Assembly (NCBI RefSeq): GCF_963676685.1
Contig: NC_092350.1
Location: 61,442,001 to 61,506,000 of the forward strand
Reading direction: 5' to 3'
Length of the DNA stretch: 64,000 nucleotides
Source of the DNA: Mytilus edulis
Lineage: Eukaryota
Part shown: piece by piece, positions 1,242 through 59,406 of the stretch
How the letters are laid out: every line of letters starts with the position of its first letter
Numbering within the stretch: position 1 is the stretch's first letter
Notes under the pieces: model-generated
Database searches by the model: none
The model's input: the letters and a program-made list of their open reading frames with translations, nothing else
What the model was told of the DNA's origin: nothing
Made by a program: the position numbers and the translations under genes

Positions 1242-1781
1242 AAGGTGACAACTTCTAGGAGCTGTGGTATTTGTGAACTCCGTCACATCAAAAACCCATC
1301 CATTGTCTGGTGTACAGAATGTGACGAGAGTCTGTGTAAAGAATGCGAAGAGCATCATAGTTTGTCTAAGGTATTCCGAATTCATGCTGTGACGGATATT
1401 GCAAAATTTAAGAATTCATCAATTGATGTACTAAATATTTCTCAATACTGTACCAAACACAATGAAAAGTATCTAGTTTATTGCCAGAAACATGAATGTC
1501 CATGCTGCGACAAATGCATCGTGGAAAGCCACAATGAATGCGAAAATATCGTCAAATTAGATGACTTCACTCATAATGTCAAAACCTCTTATACCCAGCG
1601 CGAGATGGAGAAAACATTATTTGAACTAGCAGCTAATATACAGAAAATTCGCCAACATCAACAGGAAAATCTGACGTCATTTAATGAAAGGAGAAAGGAT
1701 ATTGAAGAAGTATTGAAGACCAGAACAAACGGCAACAACTATAATGTCTATTTTTCAAGATTTTCGAACATTTTATATTAA
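1242..1781 (+). pseudogene. Truncated RING-less TRIM-like (B-box) pseudogene
   Basis: Encodes both B-boxes and the start of the coiled coil. The paralogous ATG (TTTGTGTTTA-ATG) reads TTTGAGATAA-AAG at 1242-1244. Similarity to paralogues stops near 1739 and there is no propeller. Confidence 0.85.
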
Positions 1782-8700: not shown

Positions 8701-8952
8701 ACTTGTTGTTATCAACGCAGATTCCATTTTGAAAAGAAACCGTCAAAAGATCACATTGCGCGTAAGAACCGTACAAAGACAAAACCAAATAGTCCTGTAA
8801 AAAGGGTAAGAAGAATCTCCCGCACTCCCCATCATGTTGACATCATGTACAGTGCTGAGGGCAAAGGTGATAGTTCCATTCGAGAAACGCACAATCCGCC
8901 ATTACCTCCGATAAAAGACCAAAAATAAATTAAGCAAAATAGGAATGACTGA
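5716..8952 (+). pseudogene. Disabled paralogue of the 738-aa orphan gene (exons 5716-5767, 6148-6175, 7067-8952)
   Basis: Splice sites conserved with the 45324-48880 gene. Lesions: 2-nt deletion ~7256, 1-nt deletion ~8150, +1 in an A-run ~8280, premature TAA at 8926. In-frame deletions of 51 nt (exon 2) and ~204 nt (~7373). Confidence 0.85.
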
Positions 8953-13659: not shown

Positions 13660-13939
13660 ATAAAGTTTTCATTGTAAATTTTAGAAATTATTTAGATAAA
13701 ACAGTGCCCAGTAGTCAGCACTTCTGTGTTGATTTGAGTTATCATTGATTTGTTCATAATTATAAATTAACTGTTAACAAGACTTTGAATTTTTGAAATA
13801 CTAAGGCTTCTCTACTTCAGGAATAGATTACCTTAGATGTATTTGGCAAAACTTTTAGGAATTTTCGGTCCTCAATGCCCTTCAAATTCGTACTTTATTT
13901 GGCCTTTTAACATTTTTTTATTCGAGCGTCACTAATGAG
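13660..13939 (+). mobile_element. Retrozyme-like repeat relic, truncated inside the hammerhead core
   Basis: Homologous to 32513-32593(-); ends TTCGAGCGTCACTAATGAG (mutated CUGAUGA box) and then breaks off. Confidence 0.7.
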
Positions 13940-16532: not shown

Positions 16533-17502
16533 GTAGGTTTTCAGGATTTATCTATTCATTCCAAAATTAATTCTTCTATTTTTTCGTTTTGTATTCTTTG
16601 GAAAATATGCATATGGTCAAAACTCGTAAAATTTATATAGCTCATCATTTTTACTTTTGTTCGTAAACTAGTTCGAAAACGTTAAATATATATTTGTCAA
16701 AATGATAACGTTCATTTCTAATACACCACTTTCGAATTTGTTTGGTATTAAGATAAGGATTATTTATCAGTTGATTAATTAGTTAACGTATTCATATATC
16801 CCTTTAAAACCTGTCTGGAATGATTTCATTTTAAGGTAATTTTAGGAATTTATATGATATTTCAAATATAATTTCTATGTGTTTTTCATCCTTTCTAGTA
16901 AAATTATCGACTTAATACGAGACATTTGCAAATTTATATAACTTTCGTGCTGGTCAGGGACATTATAATATACTTATTTTCATTTATGATTTTTGTCCCA
17001 TTTCTTGGGCAAGTTATTGTCTTCGTTCATAATGTATTCAAACCCCGTGAAGATTAACTCCATATTTAAGGGACGTCTGAAATTCTTCATATGTATTTCC
17101 ACTATATTTTTATTTTTAAATTAATTGACCGATGTTTTCACTCTAAAATACGTGACAATGGACACTACACAAGCTGAAATCTTTTAAATTCATTTTTATT
17201 TCGGGCGATTAAATAACTGTATACACGGAATGTGAAATGAGATAAATGAGAATTATTCCGATTTTGTAATATATATCTTCTATTGATTGGTTGATCATTT
17301 GTACTAGACGTCATTTTCAGGAATCAGGGCTATATTTTGAAACAAGCTTTTTATTGACGTATGAAAGCGGTGTGCATTGAGAGAAGTAACGCAATTCGAC
17401 AATGAAACTAAATTAAGCCTTTATTTTCTGTTGCGTTCGTGGTTGATGTTGTTACTGTTGTAAACTTTTAAATCAGCTATTGTTATTTGTAGTTTGTGTT
17501 TA

Positions 17503-19194
17503 ATGGCGACAGCTACTAAGACCTGTGGTGTTTGTGAACTACGTAACATCACTAAACCATCCATAGTCTGGTGTACAGAATGCTACAAGGGACTATGTAC
17601 AGAATGCAAGGATCGTCATAGCTTGTCTAAGGCATTGCAAAGCCATAGTGTTATACATATAGCCGAAAACCGGAAAATACCAGCTGATATTCTTCAAATT
17701 ACTCAGTACTGCATCAAACACGATAAAAAGTATCAAATGTATTGTCAGAAGCATGAATGTCCTTGCTGCAGCAAATGTATCGTGGAATGTCATAAAGATT
17801 GCCAAGATTTCGTCAAATTAGATGACGCCATTCACAATGTCAAAACCTCCAATGCCATGTGCGAGCTAGAAGAAACGTTAGTTGAAGTAGCAGGAAATCT
17901 ACAGAAAATTCGTCAGCATCAACAAAAAAATCTAACGACATTGAAAGAAAGTACAAAGAAAATAGAAAAAGAAATAAAGACAACGAAAATAAAGATAAAC
18001 AATCATCTTGACAAACTACAAGAGGATTTAATGAAAGAACTCTATGCGATAGAAGAAAAAGAAAACCCGAAAATTCTTCTGTTATTGTCATCACTAGAAC
18101 AGAAAGAAAAGGAAATAGCAGATTGTCAAAGAAACATTATGAACGTCAAGCAACATGCAACAGATCTTCAAGTGTTTCTTTCAATGAAAAAAATAGAGAA
18201 GGACGTCTATAGCAAAAATCAATTTCTTCAGTCGATTCAAGAAGACAAAAATTTCAAACAAATTTCTCTTTCATATAAGATCAGCAACTCTATCCAGAAT
18301 ATCATGTCTGACATCATAAGTTTTGGAGAAGTGAGTATTGAGGCTAAATCTTGTGATATTGTCTTAATGAGGAAAAAGGCCAAAGAAGCCCAAATGCTGG
18401 TACCGACCATTCAATCAAGATCCATTGAAAATATAAAGGTAGCGACACAAATGAGCATCAACACTCAAGTGGTGTCAACCTACGGTTGTAGCATGATATC
18501 GAATGATAGATTGGCATTTAACTCCTATTGGGAATTTAAGGTCATTATATTCAACATTAACGGATTAAAAGAATTTGAGGTGAAGATGCCTTGTCAAGCT
18601 TATGATATAGTGTACATCAGTGAGTACAATGAATTGGCTGTCACATCTGGTGCTTCAGCGAAAACATGCATTTATATTATAGATCTTGAGAGGAAACAAA
18701 TAAAGAAAACCATTCCACTAGATTCCAAAAATTATGGCATAGCACTGAAAAATAATCAATTGATTTATTCTGGTCACGACAAAGGTATACGAATGATTAA
18801 TCTGCGCGACAATTCGATAAGTGACATAGTCCGAGACGCAATGCCCAGTGACTGTTACACTGCAACAGTTAGGGACAAAATATATCATACAAACAGAGAA
18901 ACAAGCACTGTGACATGTTATAATCTACAAGGTAAAATACAATGGACATTCTTAAATGAAAGCGTTCTGAAGAATCCCCGAGGTATAGATGTGGATAATG
19001 ATGGCAATGTGTTCGTGGTGGGGTTCTCGTCAAACAATCTGGTAGTTATCTCCCCTGATGGACAACGACATAGAGAGGTCTTGACAACAGATGATGGTCT
19101 AAGTCATCCTGTCTCACTTCGTTATAGTGGATCAAAGAAACAGCTGCTTATCGCGAACTTCAATAACAAGGCTCATTTGTTTAATGTTATTTGA
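17503..19194 (+). CDS. RING-less TRIM-like protein: two B-boxes, coiled coil, NHL-type six-bladed propeller (563 aa)
   Basis: Intact ORF with CxxC..CxxC..CxxC..H and CxxH..C..H..C..C motifs, a heptad-rich middle and a C-terminal PRGIDVDNDGNVFVV NHL motif; the likely start is the ATG after the TTTGTAG acceptor. Confidence 0.92.
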   Translation: MATATKTCGVCELRNITKPSIVWCTECYKGLCTECKDRHSLSKALQSHSVIHIAENRKIPADILQITQYCIKHDKKYQMYCQKHECPCCSKCIVECHKDCQDFVKLDDAIHNVKTSNAMCELEETLVEVAGNLQKIRQHQQKNLTTLKESTKKIEKEIKTTKIKINNHLDKLQEDLMKELYAIEEKENPKILLLLSSLEQKEKEIADCQRNIMNVKQHATDLQVFLSMKKIEKDVYSKNQFLQSIQEDKNFKQISLSYKISNSIQNIMSDIISFGEVSIEAKSCDIVLMRKKAKEAQMLVPTIQSRSIENIKVATQMSINTQVVSTYGCSMISNDRLAFNSYWEFKVIIFNINGLKEFEVKMPCQAYDIVYISEYNELAVTSGASAKTCIYIIDLERKQIKKTIPLDSKNYGIALKNNQLIYSGHDKGIRMINLRDNSISDIVRDAMPSDCYTATVRDKIYHTNRETSTVTCYNLQGKIQWTFLNESVLKNPRGIDVDNDGNVFVVGFSSNNLVVISPDGQRHREVLTTDDGLSHPVSLRYSGSKKQLLIANFNNKAHLFNVI

Positions 19195-20861: not shown

Positions 20862-22732
20862 TTCTACATTTGAAAATGCCTGTACAAAGTCAGAAATATG
20901 ACAGTTCTTGTCCATTCGTTTTTGATGTGTATTGTTGTTTGATTTTGCCATGTGGTTATGGACTTTCCGATTGGATTTTCCTCAAAGTTCTTTTTAACAC
21001 TCTAATTGATTCTTTATTGCACATATTGCGTTTTAACAATTAAACTTGGTTTACAGCATTTCATCAAGTTTCCCTGTTGGATTACAACTGAATACTCAGG
21101 GATAATATTCAGTAAATTAACTAATAAATTACAATGGTTTAATTCACACATTAAACTATTATAATTATAGTTGTTACAAATAGTCTTTGCTACATCACTA
21201 AAAGTATTTTCATCCGGAATGACTTTTTGGGTTCTTTTATTATTTAATCAAAAAAAATTGCGGTCAAGTGACCTTACACGACTTTTCTGTCCCTCGTGTT
21301 TGGACAATATTTTTTGAAGTGTTTCGAGAATTTGGATTTATTAATTTCTATATGGTTTTAAAATCTTGGAATAATATTGCGTAAAGGTAAGTTGGAGTGT
21401 AAATATATTTTTCACAGTTGTTCACCTGCCCAAGTTTGTAAACAATACACACAGATGTAGTGTACACGTGTCGAAGTACCAATATTGACAAAGACACACA
21501 CACACACACCTTCGTATACTAATATATCTGATTTACCCATATTATCATTCATACCTTATAGTAATAATTACTGTACAAACAAACTTCTGCACTTACAGTC
21601 ATACTTGTTCAGTGCCTCATGATACATTTTACAAAAAAATGTCTTTCCATACCTTTCACACATACTCATACCTTAGGCATGGCACTTACAGATAGTTACT
21701 TGCATAGTACATTTATAATAAATGAGAAAAAAACACACATACAATTGCTCATAATCTAGATCAATAGCATGTGTTTTTTTTCTTTACATGTAGCTTAAGT
21801 TGACTATAAAATGACTTCATTATTATACTTCAAAATATTCAACGCCTTTGTAAATAAACAACTGATCTCTGTATTGGTCATACTATATAATTCTACAGTA
21901 TTTTCTACCTCATATTCAAAAAAATTTAAGGTGTCTACTGCTTTGGTTTTTTTATTGGAAACATAATGTATTTTATAGACTGAAAAGAACATTAAGCTAA
22001 GCAAATGATTTAGCGCATAGTATACATCGTCATGAATTTTGTGTCCTATAACCAACGAATGAAGACTTATTACATGTTCGCCTATGAAGACTTTTTTAAG
22101 TATACTTACATTGATTTCCAGAATGTTTTATGATATAAACATGTAATGAAAAAATGATTATAATTATCTATTTCATTGCAATATGAACACAAATTGTTTT
22201 GTGAAATTTTCCACTGAGAAAGCAACACCTCATTTGGCAAAATAAAGTGCATTAATTTCCACCTAAACATTTTTATTTTATTATCTTTAAGATATTCAAA
22301 ATTAAATTTAATAGAGTCTTTTTAAATTCATTTATTAGTCTCCCTTTGCTTAAAACTCTTTCCCATTTCAAAAATCCTACTGGTATTTCTGTTTTTGACA
22401 CACTTAATACTAAGTTGTATATGTTTTTAGCATTAATAGTAAGAACATCATTACAATCTCTAAGTTTAGTTTTTGTTCGGTTGATATGGACTTTGGTTTT
22501 GAGTGATTCTTCTGATTTTAATTTGTCTGTCCATTGCTTTGGTATAGATTTTTTTAGTTTTGAGAATTCGGAAATCCAATTCCTTTTATTTCTTAATTTT
22601 GAAGTAATCATTTCTTCTGATAAATTTCCTCTTTTATCTATTATGTCATTTATATATAACATGTTACTATTAATCAAGTCACCAAAGAACAGATTTTCCT
22701 CAAAGTTTAGTATTTTTCTGATTTTACTTTTT
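20862..22732 (-). repeat. SINE-like family C copy split by a LINE
   Basis: 20862-20989 and 22692-22732 join into the reverse complement of the family seen at 28276-28550. Confidence 0.8.
20990..22691 (-). mobile_element. 5'-truncated L1/Tx1-type LINE
   Basis: Frameshifted ORF2 C-terminus (22273-22677, then a CSYC...H....C zinc knuckle at ~22140-22195, then 21804-22055). Minus-strand AATAAA at ~21013-21018. 16-bp TSD GATTTTCCTCAAAGTT at 20974-20989 and 22692-22707. Confidence 0.85.
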
Positions 22733-25030
22733 AAGCAAGTAATGTACCATTAAGATTTGGATATCATTTTATTGATTATGTACATTAATCAGGCAGCAAG
22801 TTTCGTTAAAGGGAAATAACTGTTCATAGTTCTACAATATGTGCAATATCGTTCCAAGTATATATAAAGAAAACCTTCAATTTACATATGACCCAAAACA
22901 AATACTTATGAAGGCAAACATTTATATTTGAGTATAATTGTATGACTACATAGGGGATCCACATACCTTGAGTGTTTTCGGCAAAAATATTTTAAACAGT
23001 TCTGTTTACATTTTTTATGTTTTCTCTCTAAATTTCCTTTTCTTTTTCTGGAAAACCTTTGATTGTCCCTCTGAATGTGTTAGGTACCTCATTAATCATT
23101 CTCAATTATTTAGCAAATCATTTCATAGCTTCAATTGTTATTAAGAAAAAGCAAACTGACTTTAACACATTTGTGATGAACATACTATATACAGTAGCCT
23201 TTTATATTTTTCAAAGAATGGCTAGTTATCTATTTGTTCTTGGTGTTAGTAATACTTTTATTTATTTTATCAAGCTATCCATAAAATTTGCCCGATTCTT
23301 CGTCAAGTTTTCAGATTAATGTTAACTTGGCCTTCAGCTGAAGAATGGGAATCTAAGAAGGATGATCGGACAGAATTGGAAGAAACAGTTGGATATATAG
23401 AAGGCACCTCCCATACTAGAATAAAGAGTTTAACCGAAAACAAGGCATTGTTTTATAGTGAACATCATATATATACTATATTCATATGCAAGTCATAAGA
23501 GACAGATTAAATCAAATAAGATACATCAAATATGGTTTCCTAGGTCATAACAATGACACAATGACTTACAGATTGATGGTTGCGATCGATCCACACGATA
23601 TTTCACCGTTTCCTCGTGACGGTTACTTACTTGGCGATACCATATATCATCATATTGCAACACTATATACTGTCAGACAGCTATGTTAGCGAAATTTAAT
23701 AACACACTATCAACGCATATTTGTCAATGAAAAGATTCGTGCAGAAAAGTTTATGAAGATCATTCAATAAGACGAAATAACATTTATAAAGTACTAGGTT
23801 CTCTTTATAGACAAATCGGAACGGTATTGCACATGTTGTAGAACTATGGGCAACTAATACCCTTCGACGAAACCTGCTTAATGTATATCATAAATAAATT
23901 ATATATACATCTTAAATTGATTATTACTTGTATTGGTATATTGAAATAATGGTTTAATTATTAAACTTTGCTTGTTTTAAAGATTCATGTGTATTATTGA
24001 ATTGTAGTAATAATCCGTATTGTGTATTCAAATTTCAAGCAATATAATGAGTAAAAAGTAAAAAGGTTGAATTAATTATCATTTTAAACATGTTTCATTC
24101 ACCTCACTTCTTATTTTGGTTTCGGTGTCGGTTTCGGTTTTGGTTTCGATATCAGCTGATGGTGAACATGTCTTTTAGCAGCATCACGAAACCCACCAAC
24201 ACTGGGTTGATCTAAGGTACGCTAGGAGAATAAGCAGGTTCTGCTCCACATGCGGCACCCGTCGTCTTGTTTATGTTAGCAAAAAACACAATTCAAGCTA
24301 TTGTAAACCGTATCTGGATGCACGTGTTGTTTGAATGTAACTACATAGAAATGAAAAGTCAACAACTAGGAAGTTGAATTCATCTCACTTGTCATCATTT
24401 TTAACTGAACCTTAAGCTTATTGTCAATTTCTAGATGTAAAGTAAAATAAAAGTCAGACTCAATTGTATCTGATGTATTCGATATCAAAAAATGGATAGA
24501 GTTATATATCTAGGTGAAAGACTAATAACAACAAAAAGTAATTTTGCCCTTATTTAACAATTAATTGTTAATGCAATATGCGGGCAAAATGATCAGGAAG
24601 TCACAAGTTTTTATGGGAATTTGTTTAAATTGCGACATAAATAAATACGTTTTCTATCAATTGTTACTTCCAATATTATTTTAAAGATCATATATGTCAT
24701 AGAAACCCAGTTTTGATATACAATGACTTTTCATAGTTTCTAAAACTGACAGCAAACACATATTCAGAAAGGTGTCACTTAACATAATTTAATGGACAGA
24801 CCGTGCTGTAACTATCTGACGACAGTCTTCAGACAATTAGCTTCAAAATGTCGGCTTCTTTTTTAGGTATGTATGAAAGCGTATATTGTTTTGTGATGTG
24901 GCTATCAAGGCATAATGACTACTTACAAAAGTATTAGCTTCCATCAAAACATTGTTGTAATTGGACATGTTATGGCTTTTCTTTTTAAAACAAATCCATT
25001 TTATAGATAAGTAGTAGCTATTCTCTAATG

Positions 25031-28550: not shown

Positions 28551-28689
28551 TAAAACTGGATGCCTGGAGAGAATCAACCCAATTCGACAAGAAATCAGAA
28601 TTAAGATATTATTTCTTTTATGTTGGTGTTTGATGGTGGTACTGATGTTAACTTTTAAATAACCTATTGTTATTTGTAGTTTGTGTTTA

Positions 28690-30381
28690 ATGGCGACAGC
28701 TGCTAAGACCTGTGGTGTTTGTGAACTACGTCACATTACTAAACCATCAATAGTCTGGTGTAGAGAATGCGACGAGGGACTATGTACAAAATGCAAGGAA
28801 CACCATAGCGTGTCAAAGGCATCGCAAAGCCATAGTGTAATTCATATAGCCGACAACCGAAAAATACCAGCTGATAAACTTAAAATTACTCAGTACTGTT
28901 CCAAACACAATAAAAAGTATAAAATGTATTGCCAGAAGCATGAATTCCTCTGCTGTAGAAAATGTATCACGGAAAGTCATAAAGAATGCCTTGATTTCAT
29001 CGAATTAGGTGACGTCATTCACAATGTCAAAACCTCCAATGCCATGTGCGAGCTAGAGGAAACATTAGTGGAAGTAGCACAAAATCTACAGAACATTCGT
29101 CAGCATCAACAGGTTAATCTGAAGACATTTATAGATAGTAGAAAGAAAATAGAAAAAGAAATAAAGACGACAAAAAAAAAGATCAACAAACATCTTGACA
29201 AACTACAAGAGGATTTAATGAAAGAACTCTATGCAATAGAAGAAAAAGAAAACCCAAAAATTCTTCTGTTATTGTCATCATTAGAACAGAAAGAAAAGGA
29301 AATAGCAGATTGTCAAAGAAACATTATGAACATCAAGCAACATGCAACCGATCTTCAAGTGTTTCTTTCAATGAAAAAAATAGAGAAGGACGTCTATAGC
29401 AAAAATCAATTTCTGCAGTCGATTGAAGAAGACAAGAATTTCAAACAAACTTTTCTTTCATGCAAGATCAACACATCTATCCAAAAAATCATATCCGACG
29501 TCAAAAGTTTTGGAGAAGTGAATATTGAGGCTAAATCTTGCGATATTGTTTTGGTAAGGAAAAAGGCCAAAGAAGCCCAAATGTTGGTACCGACCATTCA
29601 ATCAAGATCCATTGAAAATATAAACCTGACGCTACAAAAGACCTGCGACACTCAAGGAAACCACACCTATGGATGTTGCATTCTGTCGGATGGTAGATTT
29701 GCCTTTACTTACTACTATTATTGTAAGGTAACTGTATTTAACATGAAAGGATTAAATGATTTTGAAGTGAATTTGCCGTGTAATGCGTTTGATGTAGCGT
29801 ACATAAGTGAGGATAATGCATTGGCTGTCACATCTGGTAGTTCGGTGAATCCGTTAATCACCATTATAGACTTGGAGAAGAAACAAATCAAGAAAACAAT
29901 GTCACTAGATTCCCAAAGTTATGGTATATCATGGAACAATAATCAATTGATTTATTCCGGTTGCGACAAAGGAATACGAATGATCGACCTCAACGACGAG
30001 TCGATAAGTGACATAGTCCGAGACAAAATGCCAAGTGACTGTTACACTGCAACAGTTATGGACAAAATATATCATACACACAGAGAAACAAGCACTGTGA
30101 CATGTTATAATCGACAAGGTAAAATACAATGGATATTCTCAAATGAAAGTGTTCTGAAGAATCCCCGAGGTATAGATGTGGATAATTACGGCAATGTGTT
30201 CGTGGTGGGGTTCTCGTCGAACAATTTGGTAGTTATCTCCCCTGATGGACAACGACATAGAGAGGTCTTGACAACAGATGATGGTCTAAGTCATCCTGTC
30301 TCACTTAATTATAGTGGATCAAAGAACCAGTTGCTAGTCGCGAACTTGAGTGGCAAGGCTCATTTGTTTAATATTTATTAG
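28690..30381 (+). CDS. RING-less TRIM-like B-box/coiled-coil/NHL protein (563 aa)
   Basis: Intact ORF; closest paralogue of 17503-19194, with the same length and motifs. Confidence 0.92.
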   Translation: MATAAKTCGVCELRHITKPSIVWCRECDEGLCTKCKEHHSVSKASQSHSVIHIADNRKIPADKLKITQYCSKHNKKYKMYCQKHEFLCCRKCITESHKECLDFIELGDVIHNVKTSNAMCELEETLVEVAQNLQNIRQHQQVNLKTFIDSRKKIEKEIKTTKKKINKHLDKLQEDLMKELYAIEEKENPKILLLLSSLEQKEKEIADCQRNIMNIKQHATDLQVFLSMKKIEKDVYSKNQFLQSIEEDKNFKQTFLSCKINTSIQKIISDVKSFGEVNIEAKSCDIVLVRKKAKEAQMLVPTIQSRSIENINLTLQKTCDTQGNHTYGCCILSDGRFAFTYYYYCKVTVFNMKGLNDFEVNLPCNAFDVAYISEDNALAVTSGSSVNPLITIIDLEKKQIKKTMSLDSQSYGISWNNNQLIYSGCDKGIRMIDLNDESISDIVRDKMPSDCYTATVMDKIYHTHRETSTVTCYNRQGKIQWIFSNESVLKNPRGIDVDNYGNVFVVGFSSNNLVVISPDGQRHREVLTTDDGLSHPVSLNYSGSKNQLLVANLSGKAHLFNIY

Positions 30382-30596: not shown

Positions 30597-30673
30597 ATAT
30601 TTCTTTGTTTACCCCTGCGCGTATCGTTGGATATAATATATAACGATACGCGCTGCGGTAAAGACAGAAATAT
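30597..30673. repeat. Short inverted repeat (~32-bp arms)
   Basis: GCGCGTATCGTT...AACGATACGCGC core with imperfect extensions. Confidence 0.75.
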
Positions 30674-31232: not shown

Positions 31233-31951
31233 ATCTGGTTAAAATACAAATCCGGTCTGTCCAAGCTTTGCTTGCAAGGATCGGATACGCTTCACTCTAC
31301 GTTCTGTAGACGTTCCGGGATCCTCTAGTTTTGTCGGATTAATACACACCTTCAAAAATTTAAGGCTAAAATTTTATTGGCTGATGTAATAATTACCAGA
31401 ACAGAAAGTTAAACGGATTGTTTTCAGATCCTTGTACGCAAAGCTAAGACACATGAGTCTGATCCTTGTTAGCAAAGCTAAGACACATGAGTCAGATCCT
31501 TGTTCGTAAAGCTAAGACACATGAGTCAGATCCTTGTTAGCAAAGCTAAAACACATGAGTCAGATCCTTATTAGCAAAGCTAAGACACACGAGTCAGATC
31601 CTTGTTCGCATAGCTAAGACACAGGATTCAAATCCTTGTTCGCAAATCTAAGACACATGAGTCAGATCCTTGTTAGCAAAGCTAAGACACAGGATTCAGA
31701 TCTTGTTCGCAAAGCTAAGACACAGGAGTCAGATCCTTGTTCGCAAAGCTAAGACACAGGAGGCAGATCCTTGTTAGCAAAGCTAAGACACAGGAGTCAG
31801 ATCCTTGTTCGCAAAGCTAAGACACAGAAGTCAGATCCTTGTTAGCAAAGGCTTAGACACATGAGTCAGATCCTTGTTAGCAAATCTAAGACACAGGAGT
31901 CAGATCCTTGTAAGCAAAGCTAAGACACAGGATCTGTATTTTTAATCAGAA
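31233..31951. mobile_element. TIR element (~50-bp TIRs) carrying a minisatellite
   Basis: 31233-31285 is an imperfect reverse complement of 31899-31951. Confidence 0.7.
31425..31932. repeat. 34-bp minisatellite, ~15 copies
   Basis: Unit CAGATCCTTGTT(A/C)GCAAAGCTAAGACACA(T/G)GAGT. Confidence 0.95.
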
Positions 31952-32483
31952 TACTCTGTGTCGATAATCTTTTCTTACAGGAGTTATGGCCCTCTTGAAA
32001 TTTAAAATTCTGTAGAAAATTGCATCATAAGTGATCCCATGCCTTCATTTCTTGTATGATATTATGAAAAAAATATAAAATACCCAAAGAAATATATTAT
32101 TATAGTACCCCTATTTCTATGTTTCATTGTCCGTCCTTCAGTGCTACTAAACAGAATTACTTCATATTTGGTCAGCAGCTTTGCAGTAATGAGTTGTAAT
32201 TATTGGATCTGTCAGACACATTCTTGCTGTTTTTCCAAACTTTATAATTCGACTGTAGATATGCTTAGAGAGATCTGCGTGCCTGTTATTTTATTTTTTA
32301 TTATTTCCATTAACATATACTATATCGATCGATCGAAACGTGCTGTTCTTTTATTGCGATATATTTATGTTACAAATTACATTAGACATGAATTTATAAA
32401 AAGATTAGTCGTTGGCAACATTCTTCTCTGAAATATATTATGGTTGCGACAGGTCTAATATATACATAGTATGGGAAATATGA

Positions 32484-32530
32484 AAGCAAGACACGCGTTT
32501 CGTCTACATAAGACTCATCAGTCACGCTCG
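32484..32530 (-). ncRNA. Type I minimal hammerhead ribozyme motif within a retrozyme-like relic (32484-32593)
   Basis: Minus strand reads GAGCGUGA-CUGAUGA-GUCU(UAUGU)AGAC-GAAA-CGCGU-GUC^UUGCU: complete catalytic core, perfect stem II, minimal stem III. Confidence 0.85.
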
Positions 32531-32923
32531 AATCAAAACAATTACACGACCAAATCAAGTAGGAAGTTGAAAGCATTGATGACCCAAAATTTCGCAGGTC
32601 TTACATTATTATATCACATTTAAGAAACATAGCATTTTTGAATATGTAGAAACAGTAATTTTGTGTACGTTCTTTAATCGTTGACATACACATTCAAACG
32701 TAAGTACGAATTGATATTAAAACTTGATGATGTATTTCAAAGGAATGCATGCCAAACATTTTATAACTATTTAATTACAAAAATATACAAGAACATGACA
32801 AAGTTAGTCTTTATTTTTACGAGAGAAAAAAAGATTAGAGAATAACGGGGTGTTAAAAATATAAAGAATAGGAAATAATGGGCAACAAAGATAAAACCAT
32901 GAGAAAAAGTTCTAAATATAAAG

Positions 32924-35334: not shown

Positions 35335-35660
35335 ATTTAAAAGAGGGACGAAAGATACCAAAGGGACAGTGAAACTCATAAATCAAAAACAAACTGACAA
35401 CGCCATGGCTAAAAATGAAAAAGACAAACAGAAAAACAAAAGCACACATGACACAACATAGAAAACTAAAGAATAAACAACACGAACCCCACCAAAAACT
35501 AGGAGTGATCTCAGGTGCTCCGGAAGGGTAAGCAGATCCTGCTCCACATGTGGTACCCGTCGTGTTGCTTATGTGATTACAAATCCGGTAAATAGTCTAA
35601 TTCGGTAGGTCACATTCATGAAAGGGAAGTGGATTGTAGTTACGACGTAAGGAACATTTA
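35335..35660 (-). repeat. Interspersed repeat family D, best-preserved copy
   Basis: GATCTCAGGTGCTCCGGAAGGGTAAGCAGATCCTGCTCCACATG core shared with 2700-2870 and other copies. Confidence 0.8.
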
Positions 35661-36228: not shown

Positions 36229-36345
36229 TAAATTAAGCCATGCAGGTTGTGTTGGTGGTTGATAGGTTGCTGTTGTTTTAAACTTTTACATAAAACTATT
36301 GTTATGACTAATCTTTTTTTTATATTAATTTTAAGCTTGTGTTTA

Positions 36346-38043
36346 ATGGCGACGTCTTTTCAAAACTGTGGTGTATGTGAACTCCGTCACATCACAAATC
36401 CATCCATTGTCTGGTGTACAGAATGTGACGAGGGACTATGTACAGAATGCCAGGAACATCATAGTTTATCTAAGACATCTAGGAGGCACAGTGTGATACC
36501 GATTACCGGTTACCAGAAATTACCAACTAATCTTCTTAAAGTTACTCAATACTGTAGCAAACACAATGAAAAGTATCAAATTTATTGCCAGAGGCATGAA
36601 AGTCCCTGCTGCAGCAAGTGTATTGTTGAGGACCATAAAGATTGCCAGGATATCGTCCATTTAGATGACGTCGTTCATAATGTCAAAACCTCCAATGCCC
36701 TACTCGAGATAGAGGACACATTAGTTGAAGCAGCAGAAAATATACAGAAAATTCGTCAGCACCAACAGGACAATCTGTCGACTTTATATGAAAAGAGAAA
36801 GGAAATTGAAAATGAAATAAAGAATATTAGAAAAAAGATCAACAGTCATCTCGATAAACTACAAGAAGATTTATTGAAACAACTCTATTCGATCGAAGAA
36901 AAAGAAAACTTGAAAATTTGTCAGTTATTGTCAACATTAGAAAACAAAGAAAAAGAAATAAAAGAATACCAAAGAAATATTATGAACATCAAGCAACAAG
37001 CAACAGACCTTCAGGTGTTTCTTTCCATGAAGCAAATAAAAGAAGGCGTCTATAGCAAAGGTATATTTCTGCACTCGATTATAGAAGGCGAGGGGGGACA
37101 TTGTTTTTCATATGAGATCAATCCCTCTATCCAGAATATCATGTCCGATATCGAAAGTTTCGGAGAGGTGAATATTGAAGCTAAACCTTGCGATATAGTT
37201 CTGACCAAAAAAAAAGCCAAACAAGCCCAAGTGATGGTACCAAAATTTACCGTTCAATCAAGATCCATTAGAAATATAAAGCTAACGATACACAAGATCA
37301 TTAACACTAAAGAAAATGTCTTCAGCTGTTGCATACTACCGGATGATAGAACGGTGTTTACTTTCTTCATTGAATCGACAGTAAAGGTATTCAACAATAA
37401 AGGATTAAAAGGCTTTAAGGTGAAGATGCCGTGTGAACCTTTTGATATAGTGTACATCAGTCAGGATAATACATTGGCTGTTACATCTGGAGGTTCAGCG
37501 AAAAATTGTATTACCATTATAGACTTGGCGAGAAAAAAAATCAAGAAGATAATTACACTGGATTCGCATAATTATGGAATAGCACTGAAAGATAATCGAT
37601 TGATTTATTCCGGTTACGACAAAGGTATATGCATGATCAATATGTACGACGAGTCAACGCGTGACATACATGACATAGTTCAAGATGCAATGCCAAGTGA
37701 AAGTTACATTGCAACATTAAGGGACAATATATATTACACTAACAACGTCACAAACGTTGTAACGTGTTGTAATCTAAAAGGTGAAATACAATGGACATTC
37801 CAAAATGAAAGCGTTCTGAAGAGTCCTCGGGGTATAGATGTAGATAGTAATGGTAATGTGTACGTGGTAGGGATGTTATCAAACAATGTTGTAGTTATCT
37901 CCCCTGACGGACAACTACATAGTGAAATATTGACAGCAGCAGATGGTCTAAATAGACCTTCCTCGCTTCATTATAGTGAAACAAGGAACCAGTTGCTAGT
38001 TGCAGGGTACAATGACAAGGCACATTTGTTTGATTTTATTTGA
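36346..38043 (+). CDS. RING-less TRIM-like B-box/coiled-coil/NHL protein (565 aa), divergent subtype
   Basis: Intact ORF with the same architecture; ATG lies 10 nt after the TTTTAAG acceptor, so the ORF-track N-terminal extension is likely intronic. Confidence 0.92.
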   Translation: MATSFQNCGVCELRHITNPSIVWCTECDEGLCTECQEHHSLSKTSRRHSVIPITGYQKLPTNLLKVTQYCSKHNEKYQIYCQRHESPCCSKCIVEDHKDCQDIVHLDDVVHNVKTSNALLEIEDTLVEAAENIQKIRQHQQDNLSTLYEKRKEIENEIKNIRKKINSHLDKLQEDLLKQLYSIEEKENLKICQLLSTLENKEKEIKEYQRNIMNIKQQATDLQVFLSMKQIKEGVYSKGIFLHSIIEGEGGHCFSYEINPSIQNIMSDIESFGEVNIEAKPCDIVLTKKKAKQAQVMVPKFTVQSRSIRNIKLTIHKIINTKENVFSCCILPDDRTVFTFFIESTVKVFNNKGLKGFKVKMPCEPFDIVYISQDNTLAVTSGGSAKNCITIIDLARKKIKKIITLDSHNYGIALKDNRLIYSGYDKGICMINMYDESTRDIHDIVQDAMPSESYIATLRDNIYYTNNVTNVVTCCNLKGEIQWTFQNESVLKSPRGIDVDSNGNVYVVGMLSNNVVVISPDGQLHSEILTAADGLNRPSSLHYSETRNQLLVAGYNDKAHLFDFI

Positions 38044-41608: not shown

Positions 41609-41888
41609 TTTACTAGAGTGGAATAGTAGCTTTCCTAAGGTGTATTTGGCAAAGCCTTTCCTATTTTTAGGTCCTCAATGCGCTTCAGCTTTGCACTTTA
41701 TTTGGTCTTGTAACCATATAACAAAAAAATTGTAGCTTCTCAAAATCTTTACTAGAGTGGAATAGTAGCTTTCCTAAGGTGTATTTGGCAAAGCCTTTCC
41801 TATTTTCAGGTCCTCAATGCGCTTAAGCTTTGCAATTTATTTGGTCTTGTAACCATTTAACAAAAAGAATGTAGCTTCTCAAAATCTT
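41609..41888 (+). repeat. 139-bp tandem duplication derived from the retrozyme-like repeat
   Basis: Two near-identical units; the internal part matches 13820-13910; no hammerhead core. Confidence 0.85.
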
Positions 41889-44800
41889 GAATATTATAAA
41901 TAAATATTTAATACATGCACTATCATTGTAAGCCATTCACATCTGTTCAAATTTCCCTGGACTAATAAAATCTTAAGTTGAAAAATACAGAATCTATTCT
42001 AAATTAATTCTTTTTTAAACAAATAAATCATTATATCAATAATCCCTGATAGAAGTGACAAATCTAATATATTTTTGATATTTTCCTTTCTAAATATAGA
42101 CGTCAAAATTAAACTCATTAAAGTAAGAATCAGTTGTTGACGCATTGTATGATCAACCATTCAGATTGGGCCAGAATATTTAATGAAAACTATCAGATAC
42201 ACAATTATAAATTGGAGATAGCCTTATGTTGATATTGATGATTTATGGTAAACCTAGAACAAATGTGAAATAAATGAAAATAAGAAAATATATATACATG
42301 TATGTATAAACATAAATGTTAACCTGATAATTATGTTTGAGCTTTCTTAAAGTTCAGCACTACTTTATTTAAGTAAAAGGTTTCTGCGGGTGAGCATATA
42401 CCAGAGTCGCATCAGTATCTATCCCAGATAAAGAGATAAAGCATATGGGCCTTAGAAAATTGTTTAATTCCAAGTGTTTTTGTTTGATAGAGAACATTAA
42501 TGTTCCTAAATAGCAATCCTGAGCTGTTTTATAGGATGGCACGGCAACTGACTCTAGGAAAAAGTAAAATCACAAAAATACTGAACTTAGAAGAAAATCA
42601 ATTCGGAAAATCCATAATCACATGGCAAAATCAAATAACATAACGCAAAGTTTTTTTCAGTATAAAAACAGACAGCTATTTCTACATCATTTTATGTCTG
42701 TAAATGCTATTATAGAAATATCTTAAGTAAGTACAAAATTTCGGCAAATTGTTGTCTCTTTCACATAAGATTGATATGATAGTCACTTTTCCTTAAAAAC
42801 AACTAATGCTGAACCTTGCATTTGCCAATTTGGAGCTTTTTCTTCATTTCAGAAAATGCAAGATGACCGTCACCGTGGAACACAGTTTAACATAGAACCC
42901 TATGAGAAAAAGACATAGAAAATCCTAATAAAATATCTGGTTGGGGGGGGGGGGGGGGGTAACCGATACATAATTTCTGTAGAGAAGACACTGTCAAGCA
43001 TACTAACAAAAATTTAACAATTACTATCCACACTAATCTGTGTCCACACTTGTTATATTTGAATAAAATGCATTTTTTGCCATTAAATCTTTCATGATTG
43101 TAAAAAAGTAGATATAGTATGGAAGAAAGATTAGAGTTATCCCTCTTTATCTCTTTATATTAGACATTATGTTTATGATAGTGATGTTATCAATCAATGA
43201 GTCGTGTGAAAGAATGAATTTAAGTATTCATATTATTTATCTGTATTTGCTTTGATTTATATACCTGTATTTTGGCACTGTGATTAGGTTTATAAAAAAA
43301 TTAATTTGAACTTGAATTTATACCCGAGACAAACTTTTAGGTTCGTGAAACAATGAATAATGATATGACCGTATATTACCTTTCTAACGTAACAATACCC
43401 AAATTGTACCTATTTAGCAAACAAAGCAGCGAAAATCTTACAAGTTATCTTAGGGACTAAACAATGGTTTTTTCTTATAATTTGACATTATGCCCGTCTT
43501 TCAAGTAAGTAAATATATCTATTCACAAAACGTTCAACAGATGGTGTATTCACTGGGAAAAGTAAAATCTACGGAAACGTCGCCATGCGATATCCACAAA
43601 ATATTTAACAAGCACCCATTTCTTTAAAAAAAATGAATAGTTAGCATAGAGTAATGACAAATTGTTCGAAATATTTGAAGAAAAAAAACATGATCTGTTA
43701 TTCGATTTATAAGGTTCTGAATTTAAGCATGGATGATATTAGGTACTCTTCATTACAAAATCATGGAAAGTTTTGTCTGGGTCATAAATAAATGTGGTGA
43801 AAAAACTGTCAAAATAAGTCAATTTGATCAAAATTAAATGAAAAACATCAGTTTACAAAACACAACATTGAACAATAAAAGACTACAAGCAATACGATCC
43901 AAATCAAAACGATATGGTTGATATCATGTGCTCCGGAAGGGTAAGCGCATATCAAGACCAATTTCCCCGGTTACCTAAGGGCACCGGTTACCCCAGGGCC
44001 TACATCAGCGGACCTTTCTTCCACCTGCATATCATGCGCCTTAATGAATTACCATTATCAAATCAATATCAATCCTTTTGTGATTATCTTTTTGAGAGCC
44101 TCACATGTATATAATATAACCTATATTGCGATTTAAGTTAAAACGCGATTCCTTAGACGTACAACCTGTTTCTCGCTTTTCGTTCCACTGTAAAACTAAA
44201 ATACTATTTGTTATTGTAAAGCAATAAAATTGAAAATGGAAATGAGGAATGTGTCAAAGAGACAACAACCCGACCAAAGAGAAGACAACAGCCGAATGCC
44301 AACAATGGGTCTTTTTTCTGTTTACTCCTTTACTATATCAATAACATACTGTTTGTCAGGTTTTTGTATTCCCATTCATCGCCAAAATGGTAAAGTATAA
44401 CAAACAAATTAAAAATGCGGACTTTTAAATTGTAGCAGGTAAAAGCTTTTACCTCAAATTAACAAATCTAACTTGAATATTCTGCTTGACTTTCCAAAAT
44501 CTATTCTTTTTAAATTTTAAACCATCCAAGCATGTGTATTTTATTTTGTCGTTACACAAGTTATGTGTGATCTATTTTTATTACTTATTTCATTATTATA
44601 AAAAAAAAATGCAGAAAGATTCAAATAAAAGAATAATAGAAAGTGTGTGGATTAACGAAGAAGACTCTTGACAATCAGATAAGACATACCCGAGTTTCAA
44701 AAAGTATCATGTTGGCTTCAATAAATAAATAAATAATAAATTCGTATTTGTGAAAAAATATTGTATTTCGTCTTTCTACTGGGAATGATTGTTGTCAGAT

Positions 44801-46268: not shown

Positions 46269-46794
46269 GTAAGTTACTTTATGTAAAGAAGGTAGGGAGT
46301 AATCCACCGTCTTGAATATCAAAGCAAAGCACCGTAATCACTTGGTTTAAAAAATTACCGAAAAGAGGTGAAAGATAACAAAGTGGCTTTCAAACTCATA
46401 AGTCGAAAATAATAATAAAATTAACGGTACCAATTTATTGGCATAGATATGGCATCATTTACTGAAATTGAAGTCTTTTGAAATAACATACTCGAAATAC
46501 TTTGATAAAAAAACTAACAAGAAAATAAGAACGGAGGCCCCCATTTTATCTTTTGGTTGTCTGAAAGCAAATTCCGAGATCTATTTCTATGAATGGTTGA
46601 AAATCATATCAGCAATTTTCTTTTCTTATCATATACCATTGCATTACATTTTCCATATTGGTTTAAAATGTCATAATCATTGGAAAATAAACCAATGACT
46701 TGGCGTCATTTTCATTTTGGGGTACGAACAATGAAATCAACCATGGGTCTTCAGATTAGTACGTTAATTTTTCTTGAATTTTAATTCATTCCAG

Positions 46795-48880
46795 ACTTCT
46801 CTTGCATTGGAAAAAGCTATGTGAGGAAAATGTTCAAGACATTAACAAGGAAATAGAACTTATTCGCCAGGGAGAAAACAGGCTCGTCGAGTTAACAAAA
46901 AAGGACAGCAAAGTTTATCCTCGCTATCGAGCTAAAATAAAGCAGCTTCAAAATTATAAAAGTGACGTTGAAACCCTTGCAAAGAAATTCCCAAATTGTA
47001 TACAGAGGGACTGTAACGTGTTTATTCCACTCAGCAGACAAAAATGTCTTAATAAACTGTACTGCTGCCTACGAAAACGCTTTAGAAAAACACGAAAAAA
47101 TGAAAAGTTCGACTTGACTACCGACATTCGAAGACGCTTTGGAGACTCTTTCGAAAAAACTGTCTTTTCCGAAATGAAGCGGAAATACTTTCAGAAATAT
47201 TTCCGAAAGTTGGGAATTGAAAGGGAAAATTTGACACCAGCATTAATGGCGACGGATAAGAAACACCGTGCGAAGACCATCAAAATTGTTATTTATGATC
47301 GCATTTTTGCTTTTAAGCATATGTTAGGAGTCCCACTATTGAGCCGAATAAAAGAAGTTCAAGAAATTATAAGACCTCGTTCATCACTGTCATTGCTTAC
47401 ACGCAGTCGCAGACTTTCAACAAATATTCTCAGAAAGACTTACACCGTTTCCAAATCCGGATTAATATGTAAACCTGATGGCAATATGACTAATATTGAA
47501 CGTTCGGAGTCACCAGCTTCTAAAAGTCTTGAAGTTAACAGGCATCCACCTAATACAATAATCGATTATTTTGTAAACAGGAAATTAACGCCGTACGAAA
47601 GTTGTGCCGAATCCGCGGAGGATTCCGACCCTTGTTCGCAGAACGAAACTTCAATGACGAAAAGCTTTAGTAGCTCTTTGTCTGCTCAAGACGACACTAA
47701 TGGTAAACAGAAAGTTTCAGAAGAATTCAACGATGATCACTGTACGCGTAGTAAACAAATGCAGCCAGAATGTCCTTTTAGTCCTGTTTCTATTATAGAA
47801 AACAAACCATTTACAGAATTCGTCGGCAAAATTGAGCCAAAATGTCCTGCTCAATCAGAACCCATTGCCAGGAACAATAGTTTTACGCAGAAGGAATCAT
47901 CCAAGTTAGACAGTTCTTGCAATACAGCAGTTGTTGCAGTTGATATTGATTCCCTACCAAACCAACAAAACAAACCAATAATCCATATACCTCAAGCCGA
48001 ATCAACCATATTGGAAAATCCCTGTTCGCTGACCTCATACACTGACAACACTAGCAGTCTTATTAAACGACCAACCCGGAACCTCATAGAAATTCCTTGT
48101 CGATCGACGTCTATTGAAATTGACACTACTTTTGCAAGTCAAAAACGAACCAAGCCGGAATTTCTGAGTCTCTCGACGCATGAAATTGACAATTCAATAC
48201 AATTGAAAAATGCTGACCACAAGATGTCTGACGATCATTGCCTTGTTGAAAACTCAACCAATCATGAGACCTCAGCTACATTGGACACTCGTCTTATAAC
48301 CGATTGGGGAAAACTTAAAGATCGGAAATCTACTACTATTGTAATTTCTGAAAATCCTACTGAGCAAATCAAACCGGAAGGTAATTGTCGTCTGCTTTTT
48401 CCACGTGGTGCTGCGCTACCTAGAATATCGTCGACTCCCAGTCAGAAAAGCACAGAAGAAATTCATTGTAAGATTGAAGGTCATGCAATAACGAAAAGGC
48501 CACAATCAGGTCTGGAAGCCAAATGTAATAAAAATTATGTTTCATCTTTGTTGAAAATAAGACGGAAGCTGCCTCCCATGGTTAATACCCAAAATGTAAT
48601 AAAACCAGTCAAAACTTATTGTAAACAACGCGGATTCGATCTCGAAACTTCACATATTGAAAATAAACCGTCAAAAGACCACATTGTGCATAAGAATCGT
48701 ACGAAGACAAAACCAAATAGTCCAGTCAAAAGGGTTAGAAGAATCTCCCGCACTCCTCATCATGTCGACATCATGTACAGTGCTGAGGAAAAAGATGATG
48801 GTACCATTAGAGAAACGCCTAATCGTCCGTTACCTCCGATAAAAGACCAAAAACAAACTACACAAAAGTGGAATGACTGA
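46795..48880 (+). CDS. Orphan gene coding exon 3 (whole protein 738 aa: basic helical N-terminal domain plus long low-complexity tail)
   Basis: 2.08-kb open frame starting right after a TTCCAG acceptor; 52+79+2086=2217 nt; no domain recognised. Confidence 0.85.
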
Positions 48881-58867: not shown

Positions 58868-59229
58868 TATATTATAAGTTGAACATCAAAGATTGCGTAA
58901 TACTGTTTCATAAATCGTCTGTTTCACTTCTTGAAGTACCTACTTATAAATCATATATTCTAATATGTCAATAATGAACGCGATTGTTCTAGACCCTGCC
59001 GACTAAAACTGGTTGAATTCAGTAAATCAAATATGTTGCGCAAACAGTGCTCGAGTTATATAGCTGTTCTCAAACCGTGTATTTCAGCAAAAGCATGTAC
59101 TTTTAAAGTTTTTAAAATGAGTCTAGTATTATATCGAATGTATGTATGAAAAAAAGTATTCATCTAAAAAAATATAAAGCATGTACCAAATGACAACAAT
59201 TAAAGTTGTAATCATGAGTATTATCCCAA

Positions 59230-59406
59230 CCAGGCATAGATTGCCTTAGTCGTATTTGGAACAACTTTTTGGAATTTCTGTTTTTAACCAATCGGCTTAC
59301 TTGAATACTTGAATTTGCCTTTCGACTGTTTTGATTCTAGAATATGCAGACGAAATCCGTGACTGCTGTATCAAATTTTAATCCTGGTATGTTTGACAAG
59401 TTTTAT
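59230..59406 (+). mobile_element. Degenerate retrozyme-like relic with the 5' half of the hammerhead deleted
   Basis: CAGGCATAGATTGCCTTAG..GTATTTGG matches 13818-13850; keeps AGACGAAA but lacks CUGAUGA. Confidence 0.6.

What the first reader, a model, noticed from the sequence alone, without database searches (positions are those of the whole stretch)
32484..32530. Intact hammerhead ribozyme core inside the TRIM cluster
Seen (minus strand): CUGAUGA at 32521-32515, stem II GUCU/AGAC, GAAA, a 2-3 bp stem III and a GUC triplet, with predicted cleavage between 32490 and 32489. Stem I is weak here (several G-U pairs and a mismatch). Known: minimal type I hammerheads with near-palindromic stem III typify Penelope-like elements and non-LTR retrozymes, which can yield small circular RNAs and are reported in mussels; they often cleave as dimers. 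Inference: a solitary retrozyme remnant, invisible to ORF annotation, that might still cut antisense transcripts between TRIM3 and TRIM4.
Basis: partly seen in the sequence, partly recalled or inferred. Interest (0 to 1): 0.7.

Follow-up and report, generated by a model that had tools for sequence, protein, structure and literature searches.

The report
Decayed mussel retrozyme copy with hammerhead
This is a real self-cutting RNA motif, but it lies in a clipped, damaged lone copy of a very common mussel repeat of a known kind and is likely an inert leftover; the repeat family shares a hairpin and an end point with Naiad jumping genes, which likely copy it around the genome.

Summary
The hammerhead core is real and correctly placed: minus strand, cut site 32490/32489. 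It belongs to one copy of a non-LTR retrozyme family with 355–367-nt units. Its 25-nt core occurs 16,422 times in this genome, about 0.8 per 64 kb, so its place among TRIM genes means nothing.

This copy keeps only 104 nt upstream of the cut and lacks the family's 40–50-nt 3' end. Private changes weaken stem I and favour an inactive pairing. RNA reads over the core come from other copies; the upstream flank has no coverage. It is most likely an inert fossil. It is a canonical, not a minimal, type I hammerhead and has no dimer partner in cis.

At family level, 50 of 57 terminal copies end 38–53 nt past the cut, just before a hairpin that this copy lacks. One Naiad family carries that hairpin at 55 of 63 identity, and 7 of 7 Naiad terminal repeats stop just before it. 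Naiad reverse transcriptase is therefore the likely helper. This scan reported that link before on other DNA; I re-tested it.

The parts
32522..32593 (-). 5'-truncated body of the retrozyme unit, ending in the 5' arm of stem I; carries a private C-to-G change at 32523
   Evidence: BLAST to family copies starts at 32593-32588. The 104 nt up to the cut site show 92 identities, 12 mismatches and 3 gap letters against the best copies. The 32523 variant is in 35 genomic copies against 16,422 cores.
32515..32521 (-). Hammerhead core strand C3-A9 (CUGAUGA), intact
   Evidence: Sequence; Rfam RF00163 alignment
32502..32514 (-). Stem II (4 bp) with 5-nt loop, identical to the family
32490..32501 (-). 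GAAA core, 2-bp stem III with a 4-nt loop (one C-to-U change at 32493 spoils the family's perfect palindrome), and the GUC triplet; cut site after 32490
   Evidence: Self-duplex -9.5 kcal/mol against -13.3 for the family 8-mer.
32477..32489 (-). Damaged 3' arm of stem I (+1 to +13); last recognisable part of the element
   Evidence: BLAST ends at 32486-32477. 6 and 7 of 13 letters match the two reference units, reached by 12% and 3% of random window pieces. Stem I register.
32440..32476 (-). Place where the family's 3' end (+14 to about +47) should lie; not recognisable, so lost or scrambled
   Evidence: Alignment to either reference tail is no better than random (40% and 52% of 2000 random continuations score as well). 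None of 57 terminal family copies ends before +23.

Best explanation
This is a lone, 5'-truncated and 3'-eroded copy of an abundant non-LTR retrozyme whose hammerhead core is intact but is predicted to misfold, and it is likely an inert fossil left by Naiad-driven retrotransposition. Family mechanism: tandem 355-367-nt units are transcribed (seen in reads). They self-cleave and circularise (shown for the mussel family in PMC7229834; here only suggested by read ends). A Naiad (Penelope-like) reverse transcriptase would bind a hairpin just downstream of the ribozyme and start copying there from nicked AT-rich DNA (inferred). Each insertion would then end 40-50 nt past a cut site, with a complete ribozyme at its 3' end and a random 5' truncation (pattern shown). 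This copy was such an insertion with 104 nt of 5' sequence. It has since lost its 3' end and gained stem I changes that create a competing helix burying C3 and the GUC triplet (changes shown; folding predicted). It points against the TRIM-like genes, so it cannot cut their mRNAs in cis.
For: Family size: 16,422 exact cores. Tandem spacings of 355-357 nt and a second 365-368-nt subfamily, against 350-390 bp published. Fixed 3' end in 50 of 57 terminal copies at +38 to +53, with 5' ends scattered from -37 to -331. Stem I: 53 of 81 family cores have a six-pair stem I without mismatch, while this copy has three G-U pairs and one mismatch in the first six positions. With 30-nt flanks its hammerhead-constrained fold is -2.7 kcal/mol against a family median of -8.2 (3 of 81 as weak). 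The cost of the active fold is 10.6 against 7.6 kcal/mol (8 of 81 as high). Its lowest-energy fold pairs C3 and the GUC triplet in a shifted helix. RNA: at 32523 only 23 of 2204 reads lack the family letter, loose ends are the family tail, and 32596-32807 has zero depth on both strands in 4 of 4 runs. Age: a contig of organism B is identical over 32425-32515, and contigs of organisms B and C cross the 5' junction. Naiad link: hairpin in 7 of 7 loci of one Naiad family and 18 of 30 of another; 55 of 63 identity; 7 of 7 terminal repeats end within about 10 nt before it; Naiad diagnostics met. Internal start of reverse transcription is shown in vitro for another Penelope-like element (PMC11167929).
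Against: All catalytic core letters, stem II and stem III are intact, and an eight-position stem I with one mismatch can still be drawn. ViennaRNA ignores tertiary contacts, and family copies also rarely show the hammerhead as their lowest-energy fold. With 9-nt and 60-nt flanks, 11 of 81 family copies cost as much as this one. The RNA test is shallow: 6-18% of each run was read, from two studies, and the neighbouring TRIM-like ORF itself reached only about 2-fold depth. A third Naiad family showed no hairpin in 4 of 4 loci. Hairpin covariation is thin (3 of 25 pairs, 6 sequences). This copy lacks both the hairpin and the fixed end, so the Naiad route is inferred for it from the family only. 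Identity with the published mussel sequence could not be checked, because the supplement was unreadable.
Confidence: 0.85

Rival explanations
1. The copy is still a weakly active cis-ribozyme that ends or destabilises rare minus-strand (antisense) transcripts between the two TRIM-like genes.
For: Core, stem II and stem III are intact. The insertion is present in three organism labels and unchanged over 32425-32515 in one of them. The published mussel monomer cleaves without a dimer.
Against: No reads upstream of it on either strand. Weak stem I and a competing helix. The intact core is explained by how it was found: at about 12% divergence some old copies keep the core by chance (inference), and 16,422 copies do.
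Confidence: 0.08
2. The copy was made from a self-cleaved linear RNA primed at its 3' end, so it ends at the cut site and the 'stem I 3' arm' is only flanking DNA that happens to pair.
For: Strong similarity ends within 4 nt of the cut in most alignments. The first 13 letters match the two references at only 6 and 7 of 13. Family RNA ends pile up next to the cut site in 2 of 4 runs.
Against: Alignments to L002, L005 and L006 run to +13. There is no clear excess of copies that break at the cut site: 41 there, against 21 and 25 at control positions +3 and -3. The test pattern passes more random flanks, and several of the 41 are tandem repeats of one variant.
Confidence: 0.06
3. The family is copied by a canonical hammerhead-bearing Penelope-like element (Penelope/Poseidon or Neptune type) or spreads by DNA-level duplication, and the Naiad hairpin is incidental.
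For: A 2026 preprint links vertebrate retrozymes to the pseudo-LTRs of Penelope-like elements (10.64898/2026.07.22.740005). Elements with a C-terminal GIY-YIG domain are abundant in this genome.
Against: The hairpin was found in 0 of the 29 other GIY-YIG loci (only 1.5 kb each side examined) and in the one locus with an N-terminal GIY-YIG. Retrozyme and Naiad copies end at the same point relative to the hairpin. Scattered 5' ends with a fixed 3' end do not fit DNA duplication.
Confidence: 0.15

Closest known systems
Mytilus galloprovincialis non-LTR retrozymes (Cervera and de la Pena 2020, PMC7229834; parts 2 and 3 of 6 and search passages read, supplement unreadable)
   Same: Type I hammerhead in AT-rich tandem units of 355-367 nt (published 350-390 bp), two related subfamilies, thousands of copies, abundant RNA.
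   Different: This copy is a lone 117-nt fragment with a damaged stem I and no 3' end. I found no general target-site duplication, whereas the paper mentions them 'when present'. The fixed 3' end and the Naiad hairpin are not in the parts read. Sequence identity with the published clone was not testable.
Minimal hammerheads of Penelope-like elements (Cervera and de la Pena 2014, PMC4209133; passages read)
   Same: Type I topology, palindromic stem III region, position near the end of a Penelope-type insertion.
   Different: The minimal motif needs no helix III or loop 3, and the Schistosoma examples have a 7-8-bp helix II and a 4-5-bp helix I. Here helix II is 4 bp and helix III is 2 bp with a tetraloop, which is the canonical layout.
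Naiad Penelope-like elements (Craig et al. 2021, PMC8557442; passages read)
   Same: Two Naiad families here share the retrozyme's hairpin and its end point; both give partial tandems and inverted pairs.
   Different: Naiads are autonomous, encode a 1000-aa endonuclease and reverse transcriptase, and lack canonical hammerheads. This window's copy does not contain the hairpin.
Anolis Poseidon element PAc (Frangieh et al. 2024, PMC11167929; parts 1 and 2 of 4 read)
   Same: Insertions end at an internal start site of reverse transcription downstream of a hammerhead, in AT-rich targets; ribozyme cleavage is not needed for insertion.
   Different: Different clade, autonomous, and tested in vitro; nothing comparable has been tested for this family.
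Vertebrate non-LTR retrozymes as non-autonomous Penelope-like sequences (Li et al. 2026, 10.64898/2026.07.22.740005; parts 1-3 of 5 read, supplements closed)
   Same: Same overall idea of a Penelope-like helper; 8 of 9 tested dimers did not cleave, so inactive copies are common.
   Different: It rests on pseudo-LTR homology in Xenopus. In the parts read there is no mussel, no Naiad helper and no recognition hairpin.

Membership tests
Type I hammerhead ribozyme (Rfam RF00163) | Conserved core C3-A9, G12-A15.1, U16.1-H17 around three helices, open at helix I | tested here: met
   all 45 model positions matched
Type I hammerhead ribozyme (Rfam RF00163) | Score at or above the gathering threshold (34 bits) | tested here: not met
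   21.9 bits, E 0.035; no hit at gathering
Type I hammerhead ribozyme (Rfam RF00163) | Stable helix I that allows the active fold | tested here: inconclusive
   Three G-U pairs and a mismatch in six positions; active fold costs 3-4 kcal/mol more than the family median; prediction only
Type I hammerhead ribozyme (Rfam RF00163) | Site-specific self-cleavage | not testable with these tools
   Needs an in vitro assay; no locus-specific reads to judge from
Minimal Penelope-type hammerhead (PMC4209133) | Helix III and loop 3 absent or reduced; long helix II; short helix I | tested here: not met
   Helix II 4 bp, helix III 2 bp with tetraloop, family helix I 6 bp
Metazoan non-LTR retrozyme (PMC7229834) | Type I hammerhead in 150-450-bp, low-GC, non-coding tandem units | tested here: met
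   Family unit 355 nt, 38% GC; second subfamily 367 nt; dimers and trimers. This copy is a fragment of that unit.
Metazoan non-LTR retrozyme (PMC7229834) | Two ribozymes in tandem, needed to release a monomer or circle (this locus) | tested here: not met
   One core only; 117 nt of a 355-367-nt unit
Metazoan non-LTR retrozyme (PMC7229834) | Expression as linear and circular RNA | tested here: inconclusive
   Family reads are abundant and mostly of the ribozyme strand in 3 of 4 runs if those libraries are stranded in the usual way; none assignable to this locus; circles not tested
Metazoan non-LTR retrozyme (PMC7229834) | Target-site duplication, when present | tested here: not met
   36 single copies: longest shared flank word 5.11 nt against 4.99 in 1260 mismatched pairs. 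The 7-nt repeat around this copy is at chance level (104 of 1260 controls reach 7).
Mytilus galloprovincialis retrozyme | Sequence identity with the published clones | not testable with these tools
   Supplementary file could not be read
Naiad (for the helper loci, not this copy) | N-terminal GIY-YIG, CxC linker, DKA motif, downstream RT | tested here: met
   4 of 4 loci examined, from three families: GIY-YIG at aa 112-179, CxC at 409-484, DKA at 538-611, YIDD at 825-898; PF01541 on L107; criteria from PMC8557442
Naiad-mobilised non-autonomous element | Shared recognition structure and shared insertion end point | tested here: met
   For the family. Absent from this copy and from the whole window.
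Naiad-mobilised non-autonomous element | Naiad protein binds and reverse-transcribes the retrozyme RNA | not testable with these tools
   Needs purified protein, as in PMC11167929

The most novel reading that the evidence does not exclude
Mussel retrozymes are non-autonomous passengers of hammerhead-free Naiad elements. They carry a 63-nt Naiad start hairpin placed just behind their ribozyme, so Naiad reverse transcriptase starts there and every new insertion ends with a complete ribozyme. This names the helper enzyme and its recognition signal. The copy in this window is a dead product of that route.
Probability: 0.65. Interest if true: 0.6.

Novelty: new member of a known kind. Interest (0 to 1): 0.3.

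Why it matters
The copy itself matters little: it is one damaged member of a family with more than 16,000 intact cores, and it shows no tie to TRIM regulation. The family-level result matters more. Which enzyme copies animal retrozymes into the genome, and what it recognises, is open: PMC8557442 and the 2026 preprint only propose a Penelope-like helper. A shared hairpin and a shared end point with Naiads make this directly testable with the in vitro system of PMC11167929. Two literature searches found no paper stating the Naiad link; most subscription papers and two supplements were not visible to me. Earlier notes of this scan reported it on other DNA of this genome.

Tried and rejected
1) Rfam at the gathering threshold: no hit in the window. 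2) Target-site duplication: a 7-nt direct repeat flanks this copy, but the family shows no excess over controls and 104 of 1260 control pairs reach 7 nt; rejected. 3) A separate subfamily with this copy's 3' arm: 19 genomic matches to the variant pattern. Of the 15 viewed, one is this copy, none of the other 14 shares its downstream sequence, and most keep the normal family tail; rejected. 4) A compensated stem I variant: the 32523 change is in only 35 copies; their 3' arms were not examined. 5) Insertions that end at the cut site as a separate route: no clear excess. 6) An empty paralogous site in the TRIM cluster: the flanks have no paralogue in the window. 7) An empty allele in other animals: none among the joints shown (29 rows not shown, and contigs of one run leave 32410-32600 open, which proves nothing). 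8) Free folding z-scores: uninformative, since family copies score no better than shuffles. 11) A genome count of copies with a fully intact core and 3' arm was not obtained. 12) No earlier notes near this place.

Full report
Observation. The motif is there as described: core 32521-32515, 4-bp stem II, GAAA, 2-bp stem III with a 4-nt loop, GUC at 32492-32490, cut site 32490/32489 on the minus strand. Rfam matches it to Hammerhead_1 over the whole model at 21.9 bits, E 0.035, below the gathering score of 34. Nothing in the window reaches gathering. A loose pattern is barely above chance (4 hits, 1.42 expected).

The family. A search of the genome with 301 bases around the site gave 53 matches from 40 of 1771 candidates scored. 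Apart from the window itself and one short piece, they lie on query positions 88-204, and several are in tandem at about 356 nt. The 25-nt core pattern occurs 16,422 times, the reversed control 0 times. That is one per 83 kb, or 0.77 per window. A natural unit cut from site to site is 355 nt and 38% GC; a second subfamily is 367 nt. This fits the Mytilus galloprovincialis non-LTR retrozymes of PMC7229834: about 5000 hammerheads in two families, 350-390-bp repeats, monomer cleavage at about 0.1 per min, abundant circular RNA (parts 2 and 3 and passages read). The mussel identity of this genome is my inference from that fit. The supplement with the sequences could not be read. By PMC4209133 (passages) the layout is the canonical metazoan type I, not the minimal Penelope type.

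Anatomy of family insertions. I mapped 81 cores from 69 loci: 19 picked by likeness to the window and 50 from the first listed on contig C1. 24 cores continue into another unit and 57 do not. Of the 57, 50 end at +38 to +53 after the cut site, 6 at +23 to +33 and 1 at +67. The 5' ends scatter from -37 to -331. There is no general target-site duplication: 36 single copies give 5.11 nt against 4.99 in 1260 control pairs. There is also no clear excess of copies that break at the cut site (41, against 21 and 25 at control positions). A fixed 3' end with random 5' truncation is the footprint of target-primed reverse transcription from an internal start. That mechanism is shown in vitro for the Anolis Poseidon element, where hammerhead cleavage is not needed for insertion (PMC11167929, parts 1-2).

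This copy. Homology runs from 32593 to 32486-32477, which is 104 nt upstream and at most 13 nt downstream of the cut. The upstream part has 92 identities, 12 mismatches and 3 gap letters against its best matches, while many family copies are 96-99% identical to the reference. Beyond +13 the family tail is not recognisable (40% and 52% of random continuations align as well). In stem I, 53 of 81 family cores have six pairs without a mismatch; this copy has three G-U pairs and a mismatch in those six positions. The change at 32523 is in only 35 copies. It allows a shifted helix that pairs C3 and the GUC triplet, which is the lowest-energy fold with 9-nt and 30-nt flanks. Forcing the hammerhead fold costs 9.9, 10.6 and 12.0 kcal/mol with 9-, 30- and 60-nt flanks, against family medians of 5.9, 7.6 and 8.4; 11, 8 and 11 of 81 copies cost as much. 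The loop III palindrome is weakened (-9.5 against -13.3 kcal/mol as a self-duplex). These are predictions without tertiary contacts.

Reads. In DNA contigs of 4 of 14 listed non-RNA runs, a contig of organism B is identical over 32425-32515, damaged arm included. Contigs of organisms B and C cross the 5' junction, and no empty allele appears among the joints shown. The insertion and its damage are therefore old (inference). In 4 raw RNA runs from two studies (6-18% of each read), the core is deeply covered, but by other copies. Only 23 of 2204 reads at 32523 lack the family letter, and the loose ends are the family tail. 32596-32807 has zero depth on both strands, and 32172-32383 has at most 0.47. 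The test is shallow, since the next TRIM-like ORF reached only about 2-fold. In 2 of 4 runs many molecules begin at 32494 (121 beside a depth of 459; 231 beside 814). I read this as family RNA ending at the cut site, clipped by the mismatch at 32493; that is an inference.

Setting. The neighbours are plus-strand ORFs at 28663-30381 and 36232-38043 with B-box and beta-propeller matches and no RING hit. The ribozyme is on the opposite strand, 2.1 kb after the first and 3.6 kb before the second. An AATAAA lies 129 nt after the first stop, so the site is probably outside that 3' UTR. Whether it lies in a 5' intron of the second gene is not known. Either way it cannot cut these mRNAs in cis. Three more fragments of the same family lie in the window, none with a working core.

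Helper element. Earlier notes of this scan proposed Naiad as helper, and I tested that. Of 30 GIY-YIG loci, the one with an N-terminal GIY-YIG carries the hairpin that follows the retrozyme's fixed end; the other 29 do not within 1.5 kb. A search with that protein showed three families, all with N-terminal GIY-YIG, CxC, DKA and YIDD motifs (4 loci; criteria from PMC8557442, passages). The hairpin is in 18 of 30 loci of the first family, 0 of 4 of the second and 7 of 7 of the third. The third matches the retrozyme at 55 of 63 letters. In 7 of 8 long loci examined a downstream terminal repeat was present, and all 7 stop within about 10 nt before the hairpin, as retrozyme copies do. A consensus fold of 6 sequences gives 25 pairs, 3 with changes on both sides, which is thin. 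The window has no copy of the hairpin.

What is in print. A Penelope-like helper is proposed in PMC8557442 and argued for vertebrates in 10.64898/2026.07.22.740005 (parts 1-3 of 5; 8 of 9 tested dimers did not cleave). Searches for retrozyme with Naiad and retrozyme with insertion and target-site duplication listed no paper with the Naiad hairpin. Unseen supplements may bear on this.

Verdict. Shown: the motif, the family, the truncation, the private changes, the fixed end and the shared hairpin. Predicted: misfolding. Inferred: inertness of this copy (0.85) and Naiad as helper (0.65). The copy is ordinary. The family-level link is the only part worth following, and this copy adds nothing to it beyond being a product. 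Interest 0.3.

Noticed in passing
window 13706-13939 (+): 234-nt fragment of the second retrozyme subfamily (87-90% to L002 and L005), broken off inside the core, with a change at core position 5.
   Followed up: partly
window 41609-41923 (+): 139-nt tandem duplication holding an older retrozyme fragment without ribozyme.
   Followed up: partly
window 59206-59406 (+): Degenerate retrozyme copy with the first core strand deleted but the family's normal 3' end kept.
   Followed up: partly
window 31424-31932: Minisatellite of 15 copies of 34 nt, 90% alike, 550 nt from the ribozyme.
   Followed up: no
window 1242-1781, 17464-19194, 28663-30381, 36232-38043: TRIM-like single-frame genes; the three scanned have beta-propeller matches, two a B-box hit, none a RING hit; the second and third are 86% identical in DNA.
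   Followed up: partly
window 7213-8928 and 46778-48880: Two related ORFs of an unexamined protein; the first is split by a stop.
   Followed up: no
window 22273-22749 (-): 158-aa frame that resembles the end of a LINE protein (recalled, not tested); no Pfam hit.
   Followed up: partly
window 35338-35657: A repeat heavily covered by RNA reads of other copies on both strands in 4 of 4 runs; related pieces at 2689-2854, 24182-24276 and 43840-43946.
   Followed up: no
window 30597-30673: Imperfect palindrome of 77 nt, 83% self-complementary.
   Followed up: no
G000:C8:58725491-58726197 and C14:36945903-36946607: Two three-unit arrays of about 341 nt on different contigs share the same four non-family letters right after the cut site, so units with an altered stem I arm may still have spread.
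   Followed up: no
L009:1246-1642: An insertion whose 5' end falls at a cut site and whose 3' end is at +40, as expected if a once-cleaved linear RNA was the template.
   Followed up: no
L030 and L074: Retrozyme copies in inverted pairs, as described for Penelope-like insertions.
   Followed up: no
L182:4609-4680: A further variant of the hairpin in a different sequence context, perhaps another Naiad-dependent element.
   Followed up: no
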